A stretch of 21,283 bases of DNA, taken from the UHGV virus genome UHGV-1980310; one strand, 5' to 3'. Of the stretch, positions 5,135 through 17,987 are shown in pieces; the stretch's first letter is position 1, and each line of letters starts with the position of its first letter. The position numbers and the translations under genes were made by a program. The notes below the pieces were generated by a model that saw only the letters and a list, made by a program, of their open reading frames with translations, made no database searches and had not been told where the DNA came from. The stretch is from a virus.

Positions 5135-5668
5135 ATGATTGATGCAAAAGTGCTTGAAGGGGTTAAAAACTGGCTGTGTATTTATGGCCGCCTGACCTGC
5201 GGTGTACTGGCTGAAAAAATGAATATGCCGCCATCCTCCATGGTTTATTTTCTGCGTGATGCGGTTGATGCAGGCGTGCTGACGGAATGTAACGGTTTTT
5301 ATGATATTCCGCGCCCCCGCCCGGTGCAGCCGGTTCGTCGCAAATGCAGCCAGGAATCTGCGGCTGATGATGTTCAGTGGTGCGGCTTCAGAAAATCCCT
5401 GCCATGGATTGAGGGGCATGATATTCCGTCGATGGCGTGGGAATTTGCTCAGGGCGTTCTGACCTGTGAAACCGTTTATGTGGTGGCTGAAGTTGATGAG
5501 CAGGCCATGAAAGAAGGCGTGCCCCAGTTTGTGATGGCGTATATCGACATACGCCTGGGCGTCATTATCTGCGGTTTAAGCGGCTGGAATATCACTGAAC
5601 ATGTTCTGCGCTACCTGATTGTTGACCGGACAGCAGCGCCTGCCGGGATATCTGCGGAGGTGGCGTAA
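5135..5668 (+). CDS. Hypothetical Cys-rich protein with a possible helix-turn-helix segment
   Basis: RBS GGGGAAA upstream of ATG 5135, preceded by an AT-rich intergenic region (4990-5134). Segment LTCGVLAEKMNMPPSSMVYFLRDAVDAGVL looks HTH-like. Function unknown. Confidence 0.45.
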   Translation: MIDAKVLEGVKNWLCIYGRLTCGVLAEKMNMPPSSMVYFLRDAVDAGVLTECNGFYDIPRPRPVQPVRRKCSQESAADDVQWCGFRKSLPWIEGHDIPSMAWEFAQGVLTCETVYVVAEVDEQAMKEGVPQFVMAYIDIRLGVIICGLSGWNITEHVLRYLIVDRTAAPAGISAEVA

Positions 5669-6039
5669 TGTTCTTTAAAACATCAAACCCTTCCGCGCTG
5701 GCTGCGTGGCAAAAATACCAGCAGGACTGCCAGAAAGTTAAGGATGAGGCAAAACGCCTTGAGGCCGTGCTGAATGTTGCGTGCCGGTCGGTATTTGTAT
5801 CCGGTATCAGTGGATTTTGCTTTAAGGGACTGCGTTTTACGGAGGACAAATATCCTTTTCATCGCGACTTATGGCGAAAACCGACTGCGTCGAATGGCGC
5901 TGATTTACAACGTGAACACCCGTGTGGCTTACAATGCCGGGCGTTACACGCAGATGATGAACAACACGGACACGCATCCGTTCTGGCAGTATGTGGCGGT
6001 CATGGACAGCCGTACCCGCCCGTCGCATTCCGCCCTTAA
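5668..6039 (+). CDS. ORF of uncertain status (translationally coupled start, then overlaps the F-like gene in another frame)
   Basis: GGAGG RBS and TAATG overlap with the upstream gene support a real start at 5668, but the frame stays open across the F-like ORF start. May be the 5' part of a frameshifted F gene. Confidence 0.25.
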   Translation: MFFKTSNPSALAAWQKYQQDCQKVKDEAKRLEAVLNVACRSVFVSGISGFCFKGLRFTEDKYPFHRDLWRKPTASNGADLQREHPCGLQCRALHADDEQHGHASVLAVCGGHGQPYPPVAFRP

Positions 6040-7010: not shown

Positions 7011-7484
7011 ATGTCATCCATTGATGCCGCTGTCGTTGTTGACGTTACGCGTCTCCAGCGAGTGTTTGCCCGGCTTCAGTTTGTGGGCGGCGGAAAAGAC
7101 CTGGCCCGCAGTGTGGCGGCGAGTCTTCTGTCATCGTCAGAAATGGCGTTTGAGCAGGAAAAAGAGCCGGATGGTGAACGCTGGCATGACTGGTCAGATC
7201 CTTACCGTGAGTGGCGTACCCGTAAGGGATACACGCCCGGCAAAATCCTGACGCTGAACGGCGATCTGGCCCGCCGCCTGACCACGGATTATGGCGATAC
7301 CTGGGCGCTGATTGGATCAAATGAACCTTATGCAGCCATTCATCAGTGGGGTGGCCTGCCTGGTATGCCACCGGGACCGGCGGCCATTGGCGCACGTCCG
7401 TATATGGGCTTTGATCAGGTGGCAGAACAGGAGATCATGGACGAAATCAGAAAACGCTTTAAAAAGGCCACAGAAACGCCGTAA
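7011..7484 (+). CDS. Virion morphogenesis protein, Mu G-like
   Basis: 157-aa ORF directly after the F-like gene with GGAGG RBS; position and size match Mu G. Confidence 0.6.
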   Translation: MSSIDAAVVVDVTRLQRVFARLQFVGGGKDLARSVAASLLSSSEMAFEQEKEPDGERWHDWSDPYREWRTRKGYTPGKILTLNGDLARRLTTDYGDTWALIGSNEPYAAIHQWGGLPGMPPGPAAIGARPYMGFDQVAEQEIMDEIRKRFKKATETP

Positions 7485-7661
7485 TGGTTTAAGGTATGCA
7501 AACGTATTACCTTACCCCCTTCAGGCGCGTGTCGTGATTTTCTAACCTGTATTTAACGGGCTTTAAAATCTGCGTGAAGCGCCTTTCTCATTCCCCCCCT
7601 GTCAGCACTTTCTGAAGTCCCGCAAAACCAGCCCCAAAAATACCCGGCTTATGCTGCCGGT

Positions 7662-8795
7662 ATGAAGACAGAAAATCACCCAAAAGACGCAAATCGCCCC
7701 TCCGGTTTAGCCGTGCTTTCAGCTTCGCTGACTGCATCCGGCGACGGATGGTGTCAGTTACTGCCAGCCGGTCGGGTAAAGGCCCGTGACGGTCGCCCGG
7801 AAAAACCGACTGAAGGCTGGCTGATTAACGAATCCGCCTGTAACCGGATGAAAGCCGGGCTTTCCGCCCTGCATCAGCCGTTACTGATTGATTATGACCA
7901 TCACTCCGTGAATGCGCAGAAAAACGGATTCAAGGCTATTGCTGCAGGATGGGTTAAGCCGGAAAACATCGAATGGCGTGAGGGTCAGGGGATTTTCATT
8001 AAACCTGAATGGACACCACAGGCACAAAAACATATTGATGACCGTGAATATGCCTATCTGTCTGCATATATGCATTATTTCGCTGACACCGGGGAACCCT
8101 ACCTGTTGCGCATGGCTTCCCTGACGAATGATCCGGGTATTACGGGTATGAACCCTGTCGCGGCACTCAGTGCTGATGATCTCTATGTCGTTTCCCCTTC
8201 TCAGGAGCAATCCCCCATGAATGAGCAATTACGCCAGTTGCTGACGGCGCTCGGTCTGACCGTGGCTGACGGTGACGAATTTACACCGGAACTGGGCACG
8301 GCGGCGCTGTCTGCCCTTACCGGGATCAAAACCCGTGCGGATGCGCACGACACCCTGAAAACGCAGGTTGCCAGCCTGTCGGCAGAGCTGGAAACCGCAA
8401 AAGGCACACCAACTGGCGGCACTATTGATCTGACGAAAAACGTGCCCGTTGAGACGTATAACGCCCTGCGTACCGAATATGTCGCGTTGTCGGCACAACA
8501 CGGCAGCACCACGCTGGAGCAGTTGCTGGATAAGGCCGAGTCCGAAGGACGCATTTTCAAAAGCGAACGCGGATACATGGAAGGACTCGGACAACAGATT
8601 GGTGTTGCGGCACTTTCTGCACAGCTTGACGCCCGCCAGCCGGTTGCGGCTCTGACCACTCTTCAGACCGACACCGTAACCGTGCCGGATAAAAAGACCG
8701 CCACCGCTGCGCTGTCGGCTGAAGATATCGCCGCCGCCCATCTGCTGGGTAAAACCGAAGCCGAGTTCCTGAAAATGAAAGAGGAAATGCAATAA
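7662..8795 (+). CDS. Head protease/scaffold protein, Mu I-like
   Basis: 377-aa ORF immediately upstream of the major head gene with a stop/start overlap; Ala-rich acidic C-terminal half typical of scaffolds. Assigned by synteny. Confidence 0.6.
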   Translation: MKTENHPKDANRPSGLAVLSASLTASGDGWCQLLPAGRVKARDGRPEKPTEGWLINESACNRMKAGLSALHQPLLIDYDHHSVNAQKNGFKAIAAGWVKPENIEWREGQGIFIKPEWTPQAQKHIDDREYAYLSAYMHYFADTGEPYLLRMASLTNDPGITGMNPVAALSADDLYVVSPSQEQSPMNEQLRQLLTALGLTVADGDEFTPELGTAALSALTGIKTRADAHDTLKTQVASLSAELETAKGTPTGGTIDLTKNVPVETYNALRTEYVALSAQHGSTTLEQLLDKAESEGRIFKSERGYMEGLGQQIGVAALSAQLDARQPVAALTTLQTDTVTVPDKKTATAALSAEDIAAAHLLGKTEAEFLKMKEEMQ

Positions 8796-11124: not shown

Positions 11125-11403
11125 ATGACAACCATTTTTATTAAACCTGCGCCGGGATGCCTGATCCGCGATCCCGACACGATGACTCCGCTCTCTCAGG
11201 ACGGGGAAGAGAAACCCTTCACTCCGTTCTGGTGCCGCCGTCTTAATGATGGCGACGTCATTGTGGTGGATAAAACGGCGGAGCCTGCCCCGGCTGCCAC
11301 AACAGGTAATACCGGCGCGGCGGCAAAACCAGCGGGAGCGGCAGCAGAAAAAACTGCGGCGGTGGCTGAAAAAACCGCAGCATCAGATAAGGGGACGTCC
11401 TGA
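11125..11403 (+). CDS. Mu gp38-like small protein with Ala/Thr-rich low-complexity C-terminus
   Basis: 92-aa ORF in the gp38 position; repetitive AAEKTAA motifs at the C-terminus. Confidence 0.4.
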   Translation: MTTIFIKPAPGCLIRDPDTMTPLSQDGEEKPFTPFWCRRLNDGDVIVVDKTAEPAPAATTGNTGAAAKPAGAAAEKTAAVAEKTAASDKGTS

Positions 11404-13025
11404 TGATTAACTTTGATTATATCGGCGATAACAATCGCATTCCGCTGGTACAGATTGAAATCAATAATTCAATGGCCGTGACCGGCACTCCACCACAGCG
11501 TCAGGCGGTACTGTTGTTTGGTCAGGCTGCAATGAAAGACACCACCATTCAGGGGCGCGGTCAGCTTGATGTACCAGTACGTATTACCCGAGCTTCACAA
11601 GCAAGAGAACTCTGGGGGCGAGGTTCCATGATTGCACTGATGGTAGAGGAATTTATCGCCATTAACCCTGACACAGAGTTATATGCCATTGCACAGGGGG
11701 CTGGAACAGGTCAGTCCAGGGCATGCGTGATGAATATCATTGGAACAGCATTGGCAGACGGGGTGTTAAGTGTTTACATCGGCGGTCGCCGTTACCTCCT
11801 GCCCGTCAGTAAGGGGAAAAAAGGTAAAGAGCTTGTGGAAGAGCTGGCTAAGGTCATTAACGCTGACACTGATGCGCCATTCACTGCTATCGCAGCTGAA
11901 GTCAGTGGTGATAATGCTGAAGGACTTAAAGGCAGCATGGGGGTTAACGCCCGCTTTATCGGTGAATGCTCAGCTCATGATTTACGGGTGAACTATTATG
12001 ACGGTGAAACTACACCGGCCGGTCTTACGCTGGAGCTCGTCGCGCCAACACAGAAGGCAACAAACCCCGATATCACCCGTAGCGTCTCAGGGATGGGGAA
12101 TCGTCAGTACAACTACATCGTCATGCCCTATAAGGATGCGGCAAATCTCAAAATTCTGGCGGATGAACTGCTGAAACGCTGGGGACCGGTAAAAATGTCG
12201 GACGGTATGGTCTGGATGGCGCATACCGGCACCTTCGGTACGGCAACCAGTTTTGGTGAATCCCGTAATGACTTCCTGTTTACCTGCACTTCTATTCCTA
12301 AAGCACCAGAGCCGGATTATGTCTGGGCGGCCTCCATTTGTGCGGTCTGTGCGCCCTCCCTGTCAACGGATCCGGCCCGACCATTACAGACACTGGCGCT
12401 GCCTGCCCGTATGGCACCTGAAGCACCAGCTCGTCTGACGCGGGAAGAGCGAAACAGCCTGCTTTATACCGGCATGTCCACGGTGACCGTCGCGGCCGCT
12501 GACATGGTGCAGATTGAACGTCAGGTGACGATGTACCGTCAGAATGCATACGGCGAAAGCGATCCCAGCTATCTGGATGTGGAAACCATCTACACCCTGT
12601 CATATCTGCGTTATTCCCTGCGCACCTTTATCACGCAACGTTTTCCGCGCCATAAACTGGCTGATGACGGGACGCCTGTTCGTGCAGGTCAGAATATCGT
12701 GACGCCGGAGATCATGAAACTTCAGTTAATTTCGCTGGGTGAAGAATGGGTGGAGCTGGGACTGGTCGAAAATCTGGACACCTTTAAAAAGAATCTGCTC
12801 GTGGAGCGCAACACAAAAGACCGTAACCGTCTGGATGTGATGTGTACACCGGATCTGGTTAACCAGTTCCGCTTCATGGCCGCGCACCCGGATTACGGCA
12901 CGTTAAATGTGCTGATAAACAGCTTTGAAAGTCGTTATAACGCTGCTGAACAGGGCGTGGTTGAGTTCACCATTAATGTCACGCCGGTAAGTGATGATAT
13001 CTGGGGTTACCGGAATGTGATATGA
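11403..13025 (+). CDS. Putative contractile tail sheath protein (Mu L position), 540 aa
   Basis: Large ORF in the sheath position after gp36-38-like genes, with TGATG coupling. Assigned by synteny only. Confidence 0.5.
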   Translation: MINFDYIGDNNRIPLVQIEINNSMAVTGTPPQRQAVLLFGQAAMKDTTIQGRGQLDVPVRITRASQARELWGRGSMIALMVEEFIAINPDTELYAIAQGAGTGQSRACVMNIIGTALADGVLSVYIGGRRYLLPVSKGKKGKELVEELAKVINADTDAPFTAIAAEVSGDNAEGLKGSMGVNARFIGECSAHDLRVNYYDGETTPAGLTLELVAPTQKATNPDITRSVSGMGNRQYNYIVMPYKDAANLKILADELLKRWGPVKMSDGMVWMAHTGTFGTATSFGESRNDFLFTCTSIPKAPEPDYVWAASICAVCAPSLSTDPARPLQTLALPARMAPEAPARLTREERNSLLYTGMSTVTVAAADMVQIERQVTMYRQNAYGESDPSYLDVETIYTLSYLRYSLRTFITQRFPRHKLADDGTPVRAGQNIVTPEIMKLQLISLGEEWVELGLVENLDTFKKNLLVERNTKDRNRLDVMCTPDLVNQFRFMAAHPDYGTLNVLINSFESRYNAAEQGVVEFTINVTPVSDDIWGYRNVI

Positions 13026-13351
13026 CCGGCGCAACCATTCAGGAGCGTCAGCGTTATGCCGGGAATAAATACCGGATGAAACCCTCTCTTAACCGTGAAT
13101 TTTATATCCGGTTTGCGGCAGAGTTTGGTTATGAAATAGATATTCAGCCATCACCGGATTCACAGTGGGTCAGTATTGTCACGATTAACAGTGAAACCGG
13201 CTACCGGAATATGAATGTGCTGGATGATATTCTCACGCCGCTGCGTATTTATGAAGGCGGTGCGCTGGAATGTATTCTGAACCGTTATAAGCCTGCATGG
13301 CAGACGTTTATTTACGTGTATGCAAACAGCCATGAAGAGGAGACTATTTAA
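13022..13351 (+). CDS. Short DUF2313 / Mu gp48-like protein, apparently only the C-terminal half
   Basis: C-terminal motif [14 protein letters not shown] and central [13 protein letters not shown] resemble YmfQ / Mu gp48-family proteins, which are ~190 aa. Sits directly upstream of the tail fibre gene as gp48 does in Mu. Recollection-based. Confidence 0.4.
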
Positions 13352-14241
13352 TGTTTCATGTTGATAATAATTCCGGCGTGGCGAATATGCCTGCGCTGGC
13401 ACCAGCGCAGAGTAATACCACCACCTGGTTTACCGAAGGTGACGGACAAAAAGGTATCAGCTGGATTGGTCAGGACTGGCTGAATATTCTCCAGGCCGAA
13501 CTGCTGAATATTCTGGCTGAAGCCAGTATTCAGCCGGATAAGGCGCAGTTAAACCAGCTTACGCTGTCCATTAAAGCCATTATCGCTGCGAATGCCTTTT
13601 CCCGGAAAAATAACCTGAAAGAAATTGCTGATGCCGGTGCGGAGGCCCAGCGTCTGGCCCGTGGTTATCTTGGTCTGGGGACGCTTGCCACAAAAAACAG
13701 TCTTGGTCCCGCTGACGTTAATGCCCTGGCGAAGGATCAGAATCTCGCCGACCTAGAGAATAAGGGAACCGCCCGTAATAATCTGGATGTTTACAGCAAA
13801 AGCGAAGGTGATAACCGTTACCTGCGCAGGGAGCAGAACGGCGCAGACATTCCGGATAAAGGGGCTTTTATCGATAACGTCGGTTTACGGGAAACGGTAA
13901 ACAGGGCGGCGAATGCTCTGCCATCGGACGGCACCGCCGTTGCCGCGAATAGACTCGCCACCCCAAGAAATATTAATGGGGTTCCCTTTGACGGGACGCA
14001 GGACATAAACATCACTTCTGGTATAACACAGCAGGATGCGGATTCCCGATATATCCAGGATATCAGGCTGGGAGCAGAGAACAGGCAGGTAATGTACGGT
14101 GGGGCATATTACTCTGCGTACGGTAATGTTATGGCAGGCCTGCAGATTGACAGTAAAGTTGATGCTTCAAACGATTTTATAGCATTCAGACCCCTGCAAA
14201 AATTAGTCGGAGGTACATGGATTACGGTATCTCAGTTATAA
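13351..14241 (+). CDS. Tail fibre protein (Mu S / P2 H type); constant N-terminus fused to variable C-terminal cassette Sv in the current orientation
   Basis: C-terminus [29 protein letters not shown] and [12 protein letters not shown] are hallmark P2 H / Mu S motifs. The gene spans the left crossover site at 13868-13893. Confidence 0.8.
13868..13893. repeat. Left crossover site (gix/hix-like 26-bp imperfect palindrome) of the invertible segment
   Basis: TTATCGATAACGTCGGTTTACGGGAA; its inner half is identical to the inner half of the right site and resembles Gin/Hin-family recombination sites. Confidence 0.6.
13881..14005. repeat. Left arm of ~120-bp imperfect inverted repeat flanking the invertible segment
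   Basis: Reverse complement of ~15075-15197 matches this stretch with a few mismatches (for example GGCGGCGAATGC(T/C)CTGCCATCGGACGGCACCGCCGTTGCCGCGAA). Confidence 0.65.
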
Positions 14242-14292
14242 ATAGTCAGTAAATAATATATTTTAAAACAGATTTATTTCCAGGAGGATTTT

Positions 14293-14814
14293 ATGGAACT
14301 AAAAAATATAACCCGTTATTATCCTGAAAATATGCCATATGGTAATAATGTTCAGTATTTCCAGAGTGAAGATGGTAAGGATTTCTACGAATCCCTGCCA
14401 TTATTCACCAAAAAATATAAACTTTGCATAACACCTGACAGCGGCGTTATCTGCTCAATATCACAGGACGCCTCGGCGCTGTATCCTGCGGGGTTTTCTG
14501 TGGTTGAGGTCGATGAACTCCCTGAAGGCACGGATATTTCAGGAAACTGGAAGTTTGATAATGGCATAATCTCCCGTATTCCGGTTAACTACGCAAGAAA
14601 ACTGGAAGCAATGCGCCAGTCATATCTTAATCAGGCATATGAAAAAATTAATGACTGGAGAACGGAGCTACAACTGGGCACCATCAGCGATGAAGACAGA
14701 GCAGCACTTACCCAATGGATGGCATACATCAGTCAGGTGAAGAAAATGGAACTACCCGCCATTAAAACAGAAGCTGAATTTAACGCCATTAAATGGCCTG
14801 AGCAGCCACAGTAA
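14293..14814 (+). CDS. Tail fibre assembly chaperone (Mu U / P2 G type)
   Basis: AGGAGG RBS; 173 aa; C-terminal region (QWMAYISQVKKMELP...IKWPEQP) is typical of tail-fibre assembly proteins. Immediately downstream of the fibre gene. Confidence 0.8.
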   Translation: MELKNITRYYPENMPYGNNVQYFQSEDGKDFYESLPLFTKKYKLCITPDSGVICSISQDASALYPAGFSVVEVDELPEGTDISGNWKFDNGIISRIPVNYARKLEAMRQSYLNQAYEKINDWRTELQLGTISDEDRAALTQWMAYISQVKKMELPAIKTEAEFNAIKWPEQPQ

Positions 14815-14817
14815 TAA

Positions 14818-14837
14818 AGAAGGCCGGAAGGCCTTCT
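14818..14837. terminator. Bidirectional hairpin between convergent U and S'v
   Basis: AGAAGGCC-GGAA-GGCCTTCT: 8-bp GC-rich stem with a 4-nt loop, 4 nt after the U stop and 9 nt from the S'v stop. Confidence 0.5.
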
Positions 14838-14845
14838 GAATATCA

Positions 14846-15197
14846 TTATATACTTGCAGCCGTCACCCATGCTCCATTTAACAGATACTGCAACGGCCGG
14901 TAATACACGCCGCCGACGTTATCTGCCGTATTCTTACCGACATCCTGTACTTTAATTCCGGTAAGAACATTGCCGCCCCCCAGATTCAGATCCCAGCTTT
15001 CCCATGTTCCGGGCATATGTGCGGTCACCGACCCCAGTCTTATGGCGGTTACTGTTCCTGATGAGATAGTGATATCCTGCGTCCCGTCAAAGGGAACACC
15101 ATTAATTGTGTGGGCATTTGCCAGCCTGTTCGCGGCAACGGCGGTGCCGTCCGATGGCAGGGCATTCGCCGCCCTGTTTACCGTTTCCCGTAAACCG
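14846..15197 (-). other. Alternative tail-fibre C-terminal cassette (S'v), promoterless and inverted; would fuse to the constant part of S after inversion
   Basis: Minus-strand frame is open from the right crossover site down to the stop at 14846. It encodes ...[25 protein letters not shown]... (shared with Sv) then a divergent end ...YRPLQYLLNGAWVTAASI that parallels the Sv terminus. Confidence 0.7.
15075..15197. repeat. Right arm of ~120-bp imperfect inverted repeat flanking the invertible segment
   Basis: See left arm; the antisense shadow ORFs of the two arms translate to near-identical peptides. Confidence 0.65.
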
Positions 15198-15210
15198 AGG
15201 TTTTCAGGAA
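15185..15210. repeat. Right crossover site (gix/hix-like) of the invertible segment
   Basis: TTCCCGTAAACCGAGGTTTTCAGGAA, in inverted orientation to the left site; lies ~65 bp upstream of the invertase gene. Confidence 0.6.
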
Positions 15211-15275: not shown

Positions 15276-15847
15276 ATGCTGATTGGGTATATCAGGGTGT
15301 CAACAAATGACCAGAATACGGCGCTACAAAGAAATGCGCTGGAATGTGCAGGATGTGAGCTGTTTTTCGAAGACAGAATAAGCGGTAAGACAAGGGAGCG
15401 TCCCGGACTTAAACGCGCATTAAAGCGACTCCGGCCAGGGGATACCCTGCTGGTCTGGAAACTGGATCGCCTTGGACGCAGTATGCAGCACCTTGTCCTT
15501 TTAACAGAAGAACTCCGGCAACGCGGCGTTAACTTCCGCAGCATTACGGACAATATTGATACATCCACTCCCATGGGACGTTTCTTTTCCATATAATGGG
15601 CGCGCTGGCGGAAATGGAGCGGGAACTCATTATTGAACGTACACGCGCGGGTCTTGCTGCTGCCCGTGCTCAGGGGCGTCATGGCGGCAGACCTCAGAAA
15701 CTGACAGAGAAAGAGCGGGAGCAAATCGCCCGTTTGCTGGCTAATGGCGAGTCCCGTAAACAAATCGCACTGATATTTGATATTGGCCTTTCCACCCTTT
15801 ATCGTTATTTTCCTGCCTCACCAGCTCCGTCACCAAAAGTACCGTGA
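15276..15847 (+). pseudogene. gin: Gin/Hin/Pin/Cin-family serine DNA invertase, disrupted by a 1-nt frameshift
   Basis: N-terminal ORF (15276-15596, catalytic motif GYIRVSTNDQ) ends ...MGRFFSI*; the next frame continues MGALAEMERELIIERTRAGL... through the C-terminal HTH. Invertases read ...GRFFFH(V/I)MGALAEMERE, so one T is missing from the T-run at 15585-15588. Confidence 0.8.
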
Positions 15848-15932: not shown

Positions 15933-17987
15933 ATGTCAGACTCCAAGTGGAAAATGCTCTCCGCCATGCCCGGAGAGTTTTCAGTCAAGGTTGCCGGTGG
16001 CACGGCGGCATTTATTGAAAGCCCTTTCCGCCCTTCGGGTAATAAAGGGGGGATCACCTTCGCAGACTGCGTGATCCGCTTCAGCACGAAAGAGCCATTA
16101 TGGGTAATGCCGGTATCCGGTAATCCCAGTGCAGAAATCACCAGTTCAGGCGTGACTGGCATCATTCCAATCACATCTGACGTGGCCGGAACGCTCACGC
16201 CCTCCGACTGGAATGCACCGGATAACGCCGGGCCTTCCGGTAGCACGAATGGCAGCAGTTCAGAGCCGGAATATTACTTTGTTGTCATTCTCGCGGGTCA
16301 GTCAAATGGCATGGCCTACGGCGAGGGGCTGCCGTTACCGGATTCGTTTGACCGCCCGGACCCACGCATTAAGCAACTGGCACGCCGCAGTACGGTAACG
16401 CCCAACGGTACGTCGTGTACATACAACGACATCATTCCGGCAGACCACTGCCTGCATGATGTTCAGGATATGAGCGGGATAAACCACCCGAAAGCTGATC
16501 TGGCAAAAGGCCAGTACGGGACTGTCGGTCAGGGGTTGCATATTGCCAAAAAACTGCTTCCCTATATCCCACAGAATGCCGGGATACTTCTGGTGCCCTG
16601 TTGTCGTGGCGGGTCAGCATTCACCACTGGAGCCGACGGCTCATTCAGTGAGGCCAGCGGTGCTTCCGCTGATTCTTCACGCTGGGGGGCCGGTAAACCT
16701 CTGTATCAGGACCTGGTAAGCCGCACCAAAGTCGCGCTGGCGAAAAACCCGAAAAACAAACTTCTGGCTGTGGTCTGGATGCAGGGAGAGGCAGACCTTG
16801 CCTCAGGAAGCCAGCAGCATAATAGTTTATTCACGGCCATGGTTCAGCAGTTCAGAACTGACCTGGCTCCGCTTGCTGCGCAGTGCGTGAGTGGAAATGC
16901 CACCACGGTGCCGTGGATTTGCGGTGATACCACGTATTACTGGAAAAACGCTGGCACCGATAAATATGAGGCAGTATACGGTGGCTACAAAGGCAAGGAA
17001 GCACAGAAAATTTTCTTTGTACCGTTCCTGACGGATGAGAATGGACAGAGCACGCCAACGAATGCTCCGGCGGAAGACCCGGATATTGTGGCTGTCGGGT
17101 ATTACGGTGCAGCATCCCGAACCCAGGGCAGTTTTGTTTCGACACAGCGTGACAGCCATTTCAGCTCATGGGCACGCAGGGGCGTCATTTCAGACCGTCT
17201 GGCCTCAGCTATTATGCTCCATGCAGGGCGCACGGCTGAACTGATGCGCGGGCAGACCGTGACACCACCGGATGAGAAGCCGTCACCTGATACACCATCA
17301 AAACCGTCCACGCCACCCGCAGACACCACGACGATGAGTACGCTATTTGCTTACCGGGCATCTGAGTCTGAAGGACGGTTGACACCACAGGGTTGGGCTG
17401 CCGGAGGTGGCAAGGCTCAAATCGTGGATGATGCCGGAGCCAGCGGGGGTAAGGCAATGAAACTGACCAAGGAAACAGGAAGAGCCCCCTGGTACCTTGA
17501 GCATGATGCTGGTAATGGTGCGGACCTGCTGGGTAAAGGTGGTCTTGTCAGTTGTCGTTTTAAACTCGATGGCGCGCTTACGGCTAATCAGTACGCACTG
17601 GCGCTGTACTGGCCGGTTTCTGCCCTGCCGCAAGGGGTTACTCTGGAAGGAAATGCCGGTCATAACCTGCTGGCATCGTTCTACGTACAGAGCGATGCCA
17701 CAGACCTTAACGTGATGTATCACAAAGGAAACACGGCGCAGAACACGAAGCTGGGGTCATTCGGCGCATTTAATAACGAATGGCATACGCTGGGCTTCCG
17801 TTTTGCCGGTAACAACAGTATTGAGGTGACGCCGGTCATTGATGGTAAGGACGGGACACCATTCATGCTGTCGCAGTCTCCGGTCGGCACGTTTACGGCA
17901 GACAAGTTGCGCGTGACCGATATCACTAAAAATGCGACTTACCCGGTACTGATTGACAGTATCGTGGTGGAAGTGAATAACGCGTAA
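15933..17987 (+). CDS. Putative SGNH/SASA-family O-acetylesterase (NanS-p-like) with a Pro/Thr-rich linker and C-terminal ~210-aa domain
   Basis: Motif VVILAGQSNGMAYGEG (nucleophile Ser, nt ~16296-16307) and downstream WMQGEAD match the sialate O-acetylesterase family. Linker PPDEKPSPDTPSKPSTPPADTTT at ~17265-17335 separates a C-terminal beta-rich domain. Confidence 0.6.
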   Translation: MSDSKWKMLSAMPGEFSVKVAGGTAAFIESPFRPSGNKGGITFADCVIRFSTKEPLWVMPVSGNPSAEITSSGVTGIIPITSDVAGTLTPSDWNAPDNAGPSGSTNGSSSEPEYYFVVILAGQSNGMAYGEGLPLPDSFDRPDPRIKQLARRSTVTPNGTSCTYNDIIPADHCLHDVQDMSGINHPKADLAKGQYGTVGQGLHIAKKLLPYIPQNAGILLVPCCRGGSAFTTGADGSFSEASGASADSSRWGAGKPLYQDLVSRTKVALAKNPKNKLLAVVWMQGEADLASGSQQHNSLFTAMVQQFRTDLAPLAAQCVSGNATTVPWICGDTTYYWKNAGTDKYEAVYGGYKGKEAQKIFFVPFLTDENGQSTPTNAPAEDPDIVAVGYYGAASRTQGSFVSTQRDSHFSSWARRGVISDRLASAIMLHAGRTAELMRGQTVTPPDEKPSPDTPSKPSTPPADTTTMSTLFAYRASESEGRLTPQGWAAGGGKAQIVDDAGASGGKAMKLTKETGRAPWYLEHDAGNGADLLGKGGLVSCRFKLDGALTANQYALALYWPVSALPQGVTLEGNAGHNLLASFYVQSDATDLNVMYHKGNTAQNTKLGSFGAFNNEWHTLGFRFAGNNSIEVTPVIDGKDGTPFMLSQSPVGTFTADKLRVTDITKNATYPVLIDSIVVEVNNA

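What the first reader, a model, noticed from the sequence alone, without database searches (positions are those of the whole stretch)
13868..15210. Invertible tail-fibre host-range cassette with only one chaperone gene and ~120-bp inverted repeats
Two gix/hix-like sites in inverted orientation bracket a ~1.3 kb segment holding the expressed fibre C-terminus (Sv), one tail-fibre assembly gene (U) and an inverted promoterless alternative C-terminus (S'v). Mu's G segment has 34-bp repeats and two chaperone genes (U and U'); here the repeats are ~120 bp, so the first ~40 residues after the crossover are shared, and there is no U'. After inversion the S'v fibre would either need no dedicated chaperone or share U from the opposite strand. 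The repeat arms carry several mismatches, which suggests inversion has not occurred recently.
Basis: partly seen in the sequence, partly recalled or inferred. Interest (0 to 1): 0.6.

Follow-up and report, generated by a model that had tools for sequence, protein, structure and literature searches.

The report
Mu-type invertible tail-fibre switch, one chaperone
This is a compact version of phage Mu's flip-flop tail-fibre switch, sitting in a broken Mu-like prophage of E. coli; it is a known kind of host-range switch, but the whole family carries one fibre chaperone gene instead of two, and most natural copies sit in the orientation where that gene points the wrong way.

Summary
Two 26-bp gix-type sites (13868-13893, 15185-15210), inverted and sharing the core TC, bracket a 1.3-kb segment. 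It holds the expressed fibre tip Sv, one tfa (Mu U homologue) and a promoterless inverted tip S'v. There is no room for a U'.

The window is a defective Sp18-like Mu-type prophage, nearly identical to one in E. coli TOE17. Its tail genes are deleted and its invertase carries a 1-T frameshift.

Inversion is real and recent. E. coli DLI.5a has a copy with the same frameshift whose segment is the exact reverse complement of 13880-15198, with no internal mismatch. Only the outer half-sites stay put. The crossover is therefore at the gix core, and it happened after the frameshift, so an invertase acted in trans. The arm mismatches lie inside the crossover and travel with the segment, so they say nothing about how recently it flipped.

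The single tfa is typical of the family: every divergent E. coli variant examined has it, and so does a Citrobacter relative. Slightly more distant relatives have two. Among 5426 E. coli genomes, 204 have tfa antisense to S and 33 have it co-oriented. S'v is under purifying selection (dN/dS about 0.1).

How the S'v fibre is folded is unresolved. I rate this a new variant of a known kind, of moderate interest.

The parts
13351..14241 (+). Tail-fibre gene S in its present state (Sc + Sv), 296 aa. Residues 1-191 are homologous to Mu S 1-184. The last ~70 residues are homologous to the Mu S/S' tip. The ~230-residue Mu shaft is absent.
13868..13893 (.). Left gix-like crossover site, TTATCGATAACG-TC-GGTTTACGGGAA. 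The outer half-site 13868-13879 stays in place on inversion.
13880..14021 (.). Left inverted-repeat arm (142 nt). It encodes the shared stretch [38 protein letters not shown].
14020..14241 (+). Sv variable tip (73 aa + stop), the tip currently expressed.
14242..14292 (+). 51-nt, 78% A+T untranslated spacer with AGGAGG before tfa. Two-chaperone cassettes have 0-2 nt here.
14293..14814 (+). The only tail-fibre assembly (chaperone) gene, tfa/U, 173 aa.
14818..14837 (-). Hairpin between the convergent tfa and S'v. It scores as an intrinsic terminator for the minus strand, that is, behind S'v.
14846..15198 (-). S'v: the promoterless alternative C-terminus (arm + 70-aa tip + stop), joined to Sc after inversion to give a 293-aa fibre.
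15057..15198 (.). Right inverted-repeat arm.
15185..15210 (.). Right gix-like site (perfect match to the consensus). The outer half-site 15199-15210 stays in place.
15276..15847 (+). Gin/Pin-family serine invertase pseudogene. One T is missing from a T5 run (T4 at 15585-15588), giving a premature stop at 15594-15596. Relatives encode an intact 190-aa protein (WP_000904914.1).

Best explanation
The region is a Gin/gix-type site-specific inversion switch for the tail-fibre tip. It is orthologous to the G segment of phage Mu but compact (1.34 kb against about 3 kb). It lies in a defective Sp18-like Mu-type prophage of E. coli.

Mechanism. A serine invertase pairs the two 26-bp sites and exchanges strands at the central TC. 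This flips 13880-15198. The constant part of S (codons 1-176, transcribed from outside) is then fused either to Sv, followed by tfa, or to S'v, followed by a terminator with tfa left antisense.

Shown here:
- the anatomy;
- the exact crossover point;
- both orientations in nature;
- inversion after the cassette's own invertase was frameshifted, which implies an invertase supplied in trans. The closest genome, TOE17, carries a second Mu-like prophage with the intact enzyme.

In this particular copy the switch has no phage to serve, because the tail tube, tape-measure and baseplate genes are deleted.

Inferred:
- The single tfa is the ancestral state of this family, not a local loss.
- The S'v state is functional.

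For how the S'v fibre folds, my preferred reading (about 0.4) is that the one Tfa serves all tips of this family. Its fibre-binding N-domain is conserved across all tip variants. It would reach S'v by expression that does not depend on orientation, or from another element in the cell. Unaided folding of S'v is the next most likely reading (about 0.3).
For: Sites and repeats.

Crossover mapping:
- Five flipped relatives with an intact invertase keep the outer half-sites, while every inner polymorphism has moved to the other arm.
- DLI.5a copy L018 is the exact reverse complement of window 13880-15198. It has 0 internal mismatches and carries the same T4 frameshift.

Source of a trans-acting invertase: TOE17 locus L017 encodes intact WP_000904914.1. 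The window is TOE17 with 7 SNPs.

Homology:
- S N-terminus and tip to Mu S/S', and Tfa to Mu U.
- Invertase domains Resolvase + HTH_7.

Family trait:
- L010-L013, at 80-94% nucleotide identity and including an O157-type prophage, all have S, one tfa, an inverted tip, the invertase and a DUF6645 gene, in that order.
- Every complete Sp18-like cassette among the IMG/VR loci has exactly one tfa.
- Citrobacter braakii L019 also has one.

Functional S'v:
- dN/dS is 0.09-0.12 among Y-type S'v tips, the same as for Tfa.
- 204 genomes have tfa antisense and 33 have it co-oriented.
- Sp18 makes packaged, Mu-like particles (PMC2669165).

Tfa N-domain: it is conserved while tip types and the Tfa C-half assort independently. 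The N-domain is the fibre-binding part in Mu Tfa (PMC9608196 citing North 2019).
Against: - No promoter that could drive tfa in the flipped state was found. There is no sigma-70-like site on the tfa strand between the left site and tfa, or leftward from the right border. The family's late-promoter-like motif is absent from the cassette.
- Tip homologues in Mu, P1, P2, SfMu and Fels-2 each come with their own chaperone. Chaperone-free folding would therefore be unusual.
- The orientation census is inflated by clonal O157 genomes.
- Purifying selection on S'v could partly reflect history in other phages, because tips are exchanged horizontally.
- I could not show that the window's own host carries an active invertase, only that its closest sequenced relative does.
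Confidence: 0.85

Rival explanations
1. Frozen fossil. With its invertase frameshifted and the prophage gutted, this copy no longer inverts and is simply locked in the Sv-tfa state.
For: There is a frameshift at 15585-15588 and tail genes are deleted. The window, TOE17 and DLI.5a copy L001 are all in the Sv orientation.
Against: DLI.5a copy L018 has the same frameshift and the same sheath/gp48 deletion junction, yet it is flipped with no internal substitution. Both gix sites are intact, and the conserved 5' part of the invertase gene is intact too. An intact identical-family invertase sits elsewhere in TOE17.
Confidence: 0.2
2. Inversion is driven by general homologous recombination between the ~140-bp arms, not by site-specific recombination.
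For: NCCP 13905 (L003) differs from NCCP 13983 (L002) by an inversion whose crossover lies in the inner 23-bp identical block GTTCCCTTTGACGGGACGCAGGA (13981-14003), not at the gix core. Arm markers are mosaic across variants.
Against: Six independent flipped copies (L005-L009, L018) have the exchange within the site: between 13879 and 13880 in L018, and no later than the first arm polymorphism in the others. The arms are only 84.5% identical, with identity runs of at most about 37 nt. L003 could also be a chimera from polishing a mixed-orientation culture.
Confidence: 0.05
3. The S'v fibre folds and trimerises without any Tfa. Tfa is needed, or stays bound as part of the tip, only for the Sv-side fibres, so the two states differ in both the tip and the presence of a Tfa cap.
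For: - tfa is antisense, and a terminator follows S'v in the flipped state.
- The flipped state is the commoner one.
- S'v is under purifying selection.
- No promoter for tfa was found.
Against: - S'v tips carry no extra domain that could act as an intramolecular chaperone. They are homologous to Sv tips and to the Mu S', P2 H and P1 S tips, which all have a dedicated Tfa.
- In Citrobacter L019 the Y-like tip is the one next to tfa. Being next to tfa therefore does not go with a particular tip type.
Confidence: 0.3
4. Degenerate switch. A U' gene was lost from a two-chaperone ancestor, and the S'v orientation now gives fibreless or non-infective particles (a dead-end state).
For: Relatives with 65-70% identical S N-termini (L067, L068) have the classical S-U/U'-S' layout, with genes 0-2 nt apart. 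All characterised systems have two chaperones.
Against: - The single-tfa layout is kept across variants whose synonymous sites are saturated (dS 0.4 to above 2). Every S'v examined (window, L010-L013) is an intact ORF, with dN/dS about 0.1 among the Y-type tips.
- It recurs in Citrobacter.
- 86% of E. coli copies sit in the supposedly dead state.
Confidence: 0.15

Closest known systems
Phage Mu G segment (Gin / gix; S, U, U', S')
   Same: - Orthologous position of the crossover in S.
- Near-identical 26-bp site with the same TC core (Mu: TTATCCAAAACC TC GGTTTACAGGAA).
- The invertase lies immediately to the right.
- Homologous Sc, tip domains and Tfa.
   Different: - 1.34 kb rather than about 3 kb.
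- The fibre is 296/293 aa rather than 504/488 aa.
- The arms are 142 nt rather than 34 nt.
- One tfa rather than U + U'.
- A 51-nt spacer separates the fibre gene from tfa, rather than 2 nt.
- An extra SASA-esterase/DUF6645 gene lies between the invertase and com/mom.
Sp18, the Mu-like prophage of E. coli O157:H7 Sakai, and its relatives
   Same: Same family. The O157-type variant L012 and the other variants share the gene order and the sites. [quoted passage not shown]
   Different: The window copy is defective: two internal deletions and a frameshifted invertase. It carries other tip alleles (Sv type A, S'v type X). I found no paper that describes the single-chaperone layout or its orientation bias.
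Phage P1 C segment (Cin / cix)
   Same: Long inverted repeats with the crossover sites at their outer ends, so residues after the crossover are shared between the two fibres (from my own knowledge of P1, not tested here). A P1-type tip is 52% identical to S'v.
   Different: P1 has U and U'. Its repeats are about 0.6 kb (from memory). P1 is a plasmid prophage, not a transposable phage.
Fels-2 / P2-like invertible fibre regions and e14 P segment (Pin)
   Same: A Gin-family invertase next to convergent fibre tips. Fels-2 was checked here. pinE-type invertases are common in E. coli and match the window's invertase gene at about 71% nucleotide identity. They are candidates for trans action; cross-complementation among Gin, Cin, Pin and Hin is established knowledge.
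   Different: Fels-2 has one G-like chaperone gene per orientation.

Membership tests
Gin/Cin/Pin/Hin-type invertible DNA segments | Two 26-bp gix/hix-type sites in inverted orientation with identical central dinucleotides | tested here: met
   Sites at 13868-13893 and 15185-15210, both with core TC when read inward.
Gin/Cin/Pin/Hin-type invertible DNA segments | An adjacent serine invertase (resolvase catalytic domain + HTH) | tested here: inconclusive
   The gene is present at 15276-15847 but frameshifted in the window. It is intact (190 aa, PF00239 E 2e-51 + PF02796) in relatives.
Gin/Cin/Pin/Hin-type invertible DNA segments | Both orientations occur, with the exchange at the site core | tested here: met
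   L005-L009 and L018, compared with the window, L001, L002 and L004. In L018 the exchange lies between 13879/13880 and 15198/15199.
Gin/Cin/Pin/Hin-type invertible DNA segments | A Fis-dependent recombinational enhancer in the 5' part of the invertase gene | not testable with these tools
   The first ~90 nt of the gene are strongly conserved at the DNA level with Mu gin, Fels-2 and Citrobacter, and they lie upstream of the frameshift. Fis binding cannot be shown in silico.
Mu G-segment architecture (S-U / U'-S') | A constant fibre N-terminus outside the segment and two alternative C-termini inside | tested here: met
Mu G-segment architecture (S-U / U'-S') | A dedicated chaperone gene downstream of each alternative tip (U and U') | tested here: not met
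   There is one tfa only. Only 31 bp separate the tfa and S'v stops, and there is no antisense ORF.
Tail-fibre assembly proteins (Caudo_TAP, Mu U / P2 G / lambda Tfa) | Sequence membership | tested here: met
   PF02413 E 4.8e-19. PDB 5yvq_B (Mu U) E 4e-16.
Multiple-inversion systems (p15B Min, shufflons) | More than two crossover sites giving several permutations | tested here: not met
   Only two consensus sites in the window. The Citrobacter relative L019 does have a third gix-like repeat.
Sp18-like transposable (Mu-type) prophages | MuA/MuB transposition genes, Mu-type head and tail genes, com/mom, and random insertion sites | tested here: met
   RefSeq annotation of the near-identical TOE17 locus, inserted in ypdB. 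DLI.5a copies lie at other sites. The structural module is incomplete in the window.

The most novel reading that the evidence does not exclude
Single-chaperone invertible cassettes are a distinct, selected design. One possibility is that one Tfa with a conserved fibre-binding domain serves a pool of interchangeable tips and is made whichever way the segment points. The other is that the fibre of the tfa-antisense state is a Mu/P2-type tip that assembles with no Tfa at all. Under this reading the strong bias of natural prophages to the tfa-antisense state marks that state as the E. coli-infective form.
Probability: 0.35. Interest if true: 0.55.

Novelty: new variant of a known kind. Interest (0 to 1): 0.4.

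Why it matters
Gin-type fibre switches are textbook material, and the rule has been one chaperone per tip.

A whole family of E. coli (and Citrobacter) Mu-like prophages breaks that rule, and about 86% of its E. coli copies sit with the chaperone gene antisense. If this holds up, one of three things follows:
- Tfa specificity is much looser than the paired U/U' layout suggests.
- Mu/P2-type tips can fold unaided.
- There is an unrecognised way of expressing a gene inside an invertible segment.

Any of these bears on engineering phage and tailocin host range by swapping tips.

The window also gives a clean natural example of a switch that keeps flipping after its own recombinase has died.

Tried and rejected
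1. Sigma-70 promoter scans of both orientations. Nothing was found on the tfa strand upstream of tfa or leftward from the right border. A perfect TTGACA antisense to the invertase catalytic-Ser codons has no usable -10, so I set it aside.

2. A late-promoter-like motif. I derived it by eye from the regions upstream of the lysozyme gene in L001 and of the protease gene in the window (CCGCAAAnCCnGCCCC). It is absent from the cassette.

3. -10-like hexamers in the four different tip-tfa spacers. Each spacer has one, but shuffles give this 61-92% of the time per spacer, and 31% for all four. This is not evidence.

4. A hidden U' antisense to tfa. Rejected: there are 5-18 stops in every antisense frame in six cassettes.

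5. Reading contig breaks at the repeat in draft assemblies as proof of mixed orientation. Rejected: a 142-nt inverted repeat breaks short-read assemblies regardless.

6. Literature. No description of the single-chaperone layout was found. The long-read-confirmed Mu-type inversion in NAR 2023 (CP066032) is a classical two-tfa cassette. North 2019 and Mori 2024 are not in the library.

7. Ribosomal or transcriptional slippage rescuing the frameshift. Considered from the sequence only. There is no slippery heptamer and the run is only four T's, so it is judged unlikely. Not tested.

8. Structure prediction was not run. Only monomers can be predicted with this tool, and the relevant question concerns a 3:3 tip-Tfa complex.
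Full report
**1. What is at 13868-15210**

The repeat finder gives two collinear inverted-repeat blocks: 13873-13958 / 15120-15205 (86 nt, 93%) and 13972-14021 / 15057-15106 (50 nt, 84%). Read from the crossover core, the arms are 13880-14021 and 15057-15198. They are 142 nt long and 84.5% identical, with 22 mismatches clustered at 13950-13971 and 14004-14019.

The Gin/Hin-type consensus TTnnnnnAAACCnnGGTTTnnnnnAA hits the 21-kb window exactly twice:
- 13868-13893: TTATCGATAACG-TC-GGTTTACGGGAA.
- 15185-15210: reverse complement TTCCTGAAAACC-TC-GGTTTACGGGAA.

The inner half-sites and the core TC are identical in the two sites. The outer half-sites differ. Mu's own gix is TTATCCAAAACC-TC-GGTTTACAGGAA and lies in the same codons of S.

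The segment contains, in order:
- The end of S (13351-14241, 296 aa).
- A 51-nt A+T-rich spacer.
- One tfa (14293-14814, 173 aa; Caudo_TAP E 5e-19; Mu U 5yvq_B E 4e-16).
- A hairpin (14818-14837) that scores as a minus-strand terminator.
- On the minus strand, an ORF in frame with the right arm down to a stop at 14846-14848. This is S'v. It has a stop 8 codons upstream of the site and no start codon.

S residues 1-191 match Mu S 1-184. The last ~70 residues of both Sv and S'v match the C-terminal tips of Mu S and S' (PDB 5yvq_A, 8ju3_A). The two tips are about 31% identical to each other. The fibre is thus a Mu S without its ~230-residue shaft.

Only 31 bp lie between the tfa and S'v stops. 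No antisense frame of tfa is open. There is no U'.

**2. Where the window comes from**

The window equals E. coli TOE17 NZ_CP069093.1, a prophage inserted in ypdB, apart from 7 SNPs. It is a Mu-type transposable prophage of the Sp18 family, with MuA, MuB, gam, head genes, and com/mom.

It has two internal deletions:
- About window 5888-5898: the annotated early/middle and late functions between the early region and the minor head protein gene are missing here.
- 12884-12998: the sheath C-terminus is fused to the gp48/YmfQ C-terminus.

The tail tube, tape-measure and baseplate genes are therefore gone.

The invertase (15276-15847) has lost one T from a T5 run (T4 at 15585-15588). This gives a stop at 15594-15596 and splits it into ORFs of 106 and 83 aa. 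Relatives encode an intact 190-aa resolvase/HTH_7 protein. RefSeq marks the gene 'frameshifted' in TOE17 and at two loci of DLI.5a, so it is not a read error of one assembly.

**3. Is it really invertible?**

Yes. Close relatives in the 5426 complete E. coli genomes fall into two classes: colinear with the window, or with the middle on the other strand.

- In five flipped relatives with an intact invertase (L005-L009), the outer half-sites are where they are in the window. Every polymorphism inside the arms has moved to the other side, including a GTGAATAAGG marker only 27 nt from the start of the site.
- The sharpest case is DLI.5a copy L018. It has the same sheath/gp48 deletion junction and the same T4 frameshift as the window. 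Its segment is the exact reverse complement of window 13880-15198 with no mismatch. The only differences from a full flip of 13868-15210 are the ten positions that distinguish the outer half-sites.

The exchange is therefore at the TC core, as expected for a serine invertase. It happened after the frameshift arose and so recently that no substitution has accumulated. The enzyme must have come in trans.

TOE17 itself carries a second, structurally complete Mu-like prophage (L017) with the intact invertase. pinE-type invertases are widespread in E. coli. Cross-complementation among Gin, Cin, Pin and Hin is established knowledge.

Both cis sites survive in the window. So does the conserved 5' part of the invertase gene, where Mu and Hin carry their Fis enhancer (the enhancer function itself was not tested).

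**4.

It does not hold. The mismatches lie inside the crossover points and are carried along by inversion. Site-specific exchange neither needs arm identity nor homogenises the arms. The same differences are present in active relatives in both orientations.

What the arms do show is mosaicism across the family. There is also one odd genome, NCCP 13905 (L003), whose inversion relative to NCCP 13983 has its crossover in the inner 23-bp identical block at 13981-14003. Two readings fit:
- homologous exchange in the conserved [12 protein letters not shown] block, a plausible handle for swapping tips;
- a chimera from polishing a mixed culture.

I could not tell which.

**5. The single chaperone is a family trait**

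Four divergent E. coli variants (L010-L013, 80-94% nucleotide identity, including an O157-type prophage) all have the same order: S, one tfa, inverted tip, invertase, DUF6645/SASA esterase.

Among the IMG/VR loci, every complete Sp18-like cassette has exactly one tfa-like gene.

A Citrobacter braakii Mu-like prophage (L019/L077) also has one tfa. There it lies next to the silent tip, and the expressed 472-aa fibre is followed directly by a terminator.

Slightly more distant relatives (L067, L068; S N-terminus 65-70% identical) have the classical two-chaperone layout, as do Mu, Fels-2 and the long-read-confirmed E. coli case of NAR 2023.

In the two-chaperone cassettes examined, the expressed fibre and its chaperone gene abut within 0-2 nt. 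In the single-tfa cassettes, 51-120 nt separate them.

**6. Is the S'v state functional?**

- Tip alleles are diverse: four Sv-side types and two S'v-side types.
- All S'v tips are intact ORFs. Y-type S'v tips evolve at dN/dS 0.09-0.12, like Tfa at 0.09-0.19.
- A census used tfa N-domain + invertase as a joined query in either relative orientation. It finds 33 genomes with tfa co-oriented with S and 204 with tfa antisense.
- For the window's own alleles, the junction counts are 7 (Sc-Sv) against 24 (Sc-S'v). In IMG/VR the split is 6 against about 25.
- Clonal O157 genomes inflate these numbers, but the direction is consistent.
- Sp18 is reported as intact and efficiently packaged, and Mu-like particles seen in the same cultures were attributed to it (PMC2669165).

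A simple reading, by analogy with Mu G(+) founders, is that particles made in the S'v state are the ones that lysogenise E. coli. This is inference.

**7. How does S'v get folded?**

This is unresolved.

Against chaperone-free folding:
- S'v tips have no extra domain and are homologous to Sv tips.
- They are 45-52% identical to the Mu S'-like (SfMu), P2 H and P1 S tips, each of which has its own Tfa.
- In Citrobacter the Y-like tip is the one adjacent to tfa.

For a shared chaperone:
- Residues 1-85 of Tfa are the fibre-binding domain in Mu Tfa according to PMC9608196, which cites North 2019.
- They are conserved across all variants, while the C-half comes in two types that assort independently of the tip type.

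Against a shared chaperone: I found no way to express tfa when it is antisense.
- No sigma-70-like promoter.
- No late-promoter-like motif.
- -10-like hexamers in the spacers occur at chance level.

My estimates:

| Reading | Probability |
|---|---|
| Shared Tfa, made independently of orientation or supplied in trans | about 0.4 |
| S'v folds unaided | about 0.3 |
| S'v state is a dead end | about 0.15 |
| Something else | the remainder |

**8. Comparison and verdict**

The region works like, and is a member of, the Gin/gix class of invertible fibre segments. The sites, the crossover, both orientations and the constant/variable fibre layout were all tested and met.

It fails one feature of the Mu G architecture, the paired chaperones. 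Its own invertase is a pseudogene.

The family's invertible region has been mentioned in the literature (Sp18: 'genes distinct from those of Mu'). I found no description of the one-chaperone layout, of the orientation bias, or of flipping after loss of the cis invertase.

It is a new variant of a known kind. The window copy itself is a relic in a dead prophage. Interest 0.4.

Noticed in passing
window 15276-15847; L001 17926-18497; L018 4996-5567: The same 1-T frameshift in the invertase occurs in three prophage copies at three different chromosomal sites: TOE17 in ypdB, DLI.5a in bglJ, and a second DLI.5a locus. Each copy has a different additional deletion. The invertase-defective phage therefore kept transposing or infecting before it decayed.
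   Followed up: partly
L003 (NZ_CM167690.1 3447954-3456504), arms corresponding to window 13881-14003: NCCP 13905 is flipped relative to NCCP 13983, but it keeps the left-type arm polymorphisms up to the inner 23-bp block GTTCCCTTTGACGGGACGCAGGA. Its crossover is therefore about 100 nt inside the gix core. This could be homologous exchange in the conserved [12 protein letters not shown] block or an assembly or polishing chimera.
   Followed up: partly
L017 3583-4942 (NZ_CP069093.1 about 3728281-3729640): The second, otherwise complete Mu-like prophage of TOE17 has a scrambled cassette. Window-equivalent 14669-14902 is present twice in opposite orientations and 14164-14382 is missing, which splits tfa into pieces of 46 and 104 aa. 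It may be a real rearrangement or a misassembly caused by two near-identical cassettes.
   Followed up: partly
window 15933-17987 (+): A 684-aa protein with a sialate O-acetylesterase (SASA/SGNH) domain (residues 117-312) and a C-terminal DUF6645 sits between the invertase and com/mom in every family member. Mu has nothing there. It could be a cargo gene like the prophage NanS-p esterases, or a tail-associated deacetylase.
   Followed up: no
window about 5888-5898 and 12884-12998: Two internal deletion junctions make the prophage defective. The second fuses the tail-sheath gene (540-aa ORF 11403-13025) to the C-terminal part of the gp48/YmfQ baseplate gene (13022-13351).
   Followed up: partly
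L019 5319-5352 / 7690-7723 and 5320-5396 / 7280-7356 (Citrobacter braakii): The Citrobacter single-tfa cassette has a third gix-like repeat just upstream of its invertase, in addition to the pair flanking the segment. This could allow more than two arrangements.
   Followed up: no
window 7620-7635; L001 about 13790-13805: A shared motif, CCGCAAA(A/T)CC(A/T)GCCCC followed by an A/T run, lies upstream of the head protease gene and of the lysozyme gene. It is probably the family's late (C-dependent) promoter element. It has no exact or near-exact copy (2 mismatches or fewer) in or next to the cassette.
   Followed up: partly
E. coli complete genomes: There is a strong orientation bias across the family: 204 genomes with tfa antisense to S against 33 co-oriented. 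A freely equilibrating switch in silent prophages should be near 50:50. A founder effect, selection or clonality could explain the bias.
   Followed up: partly
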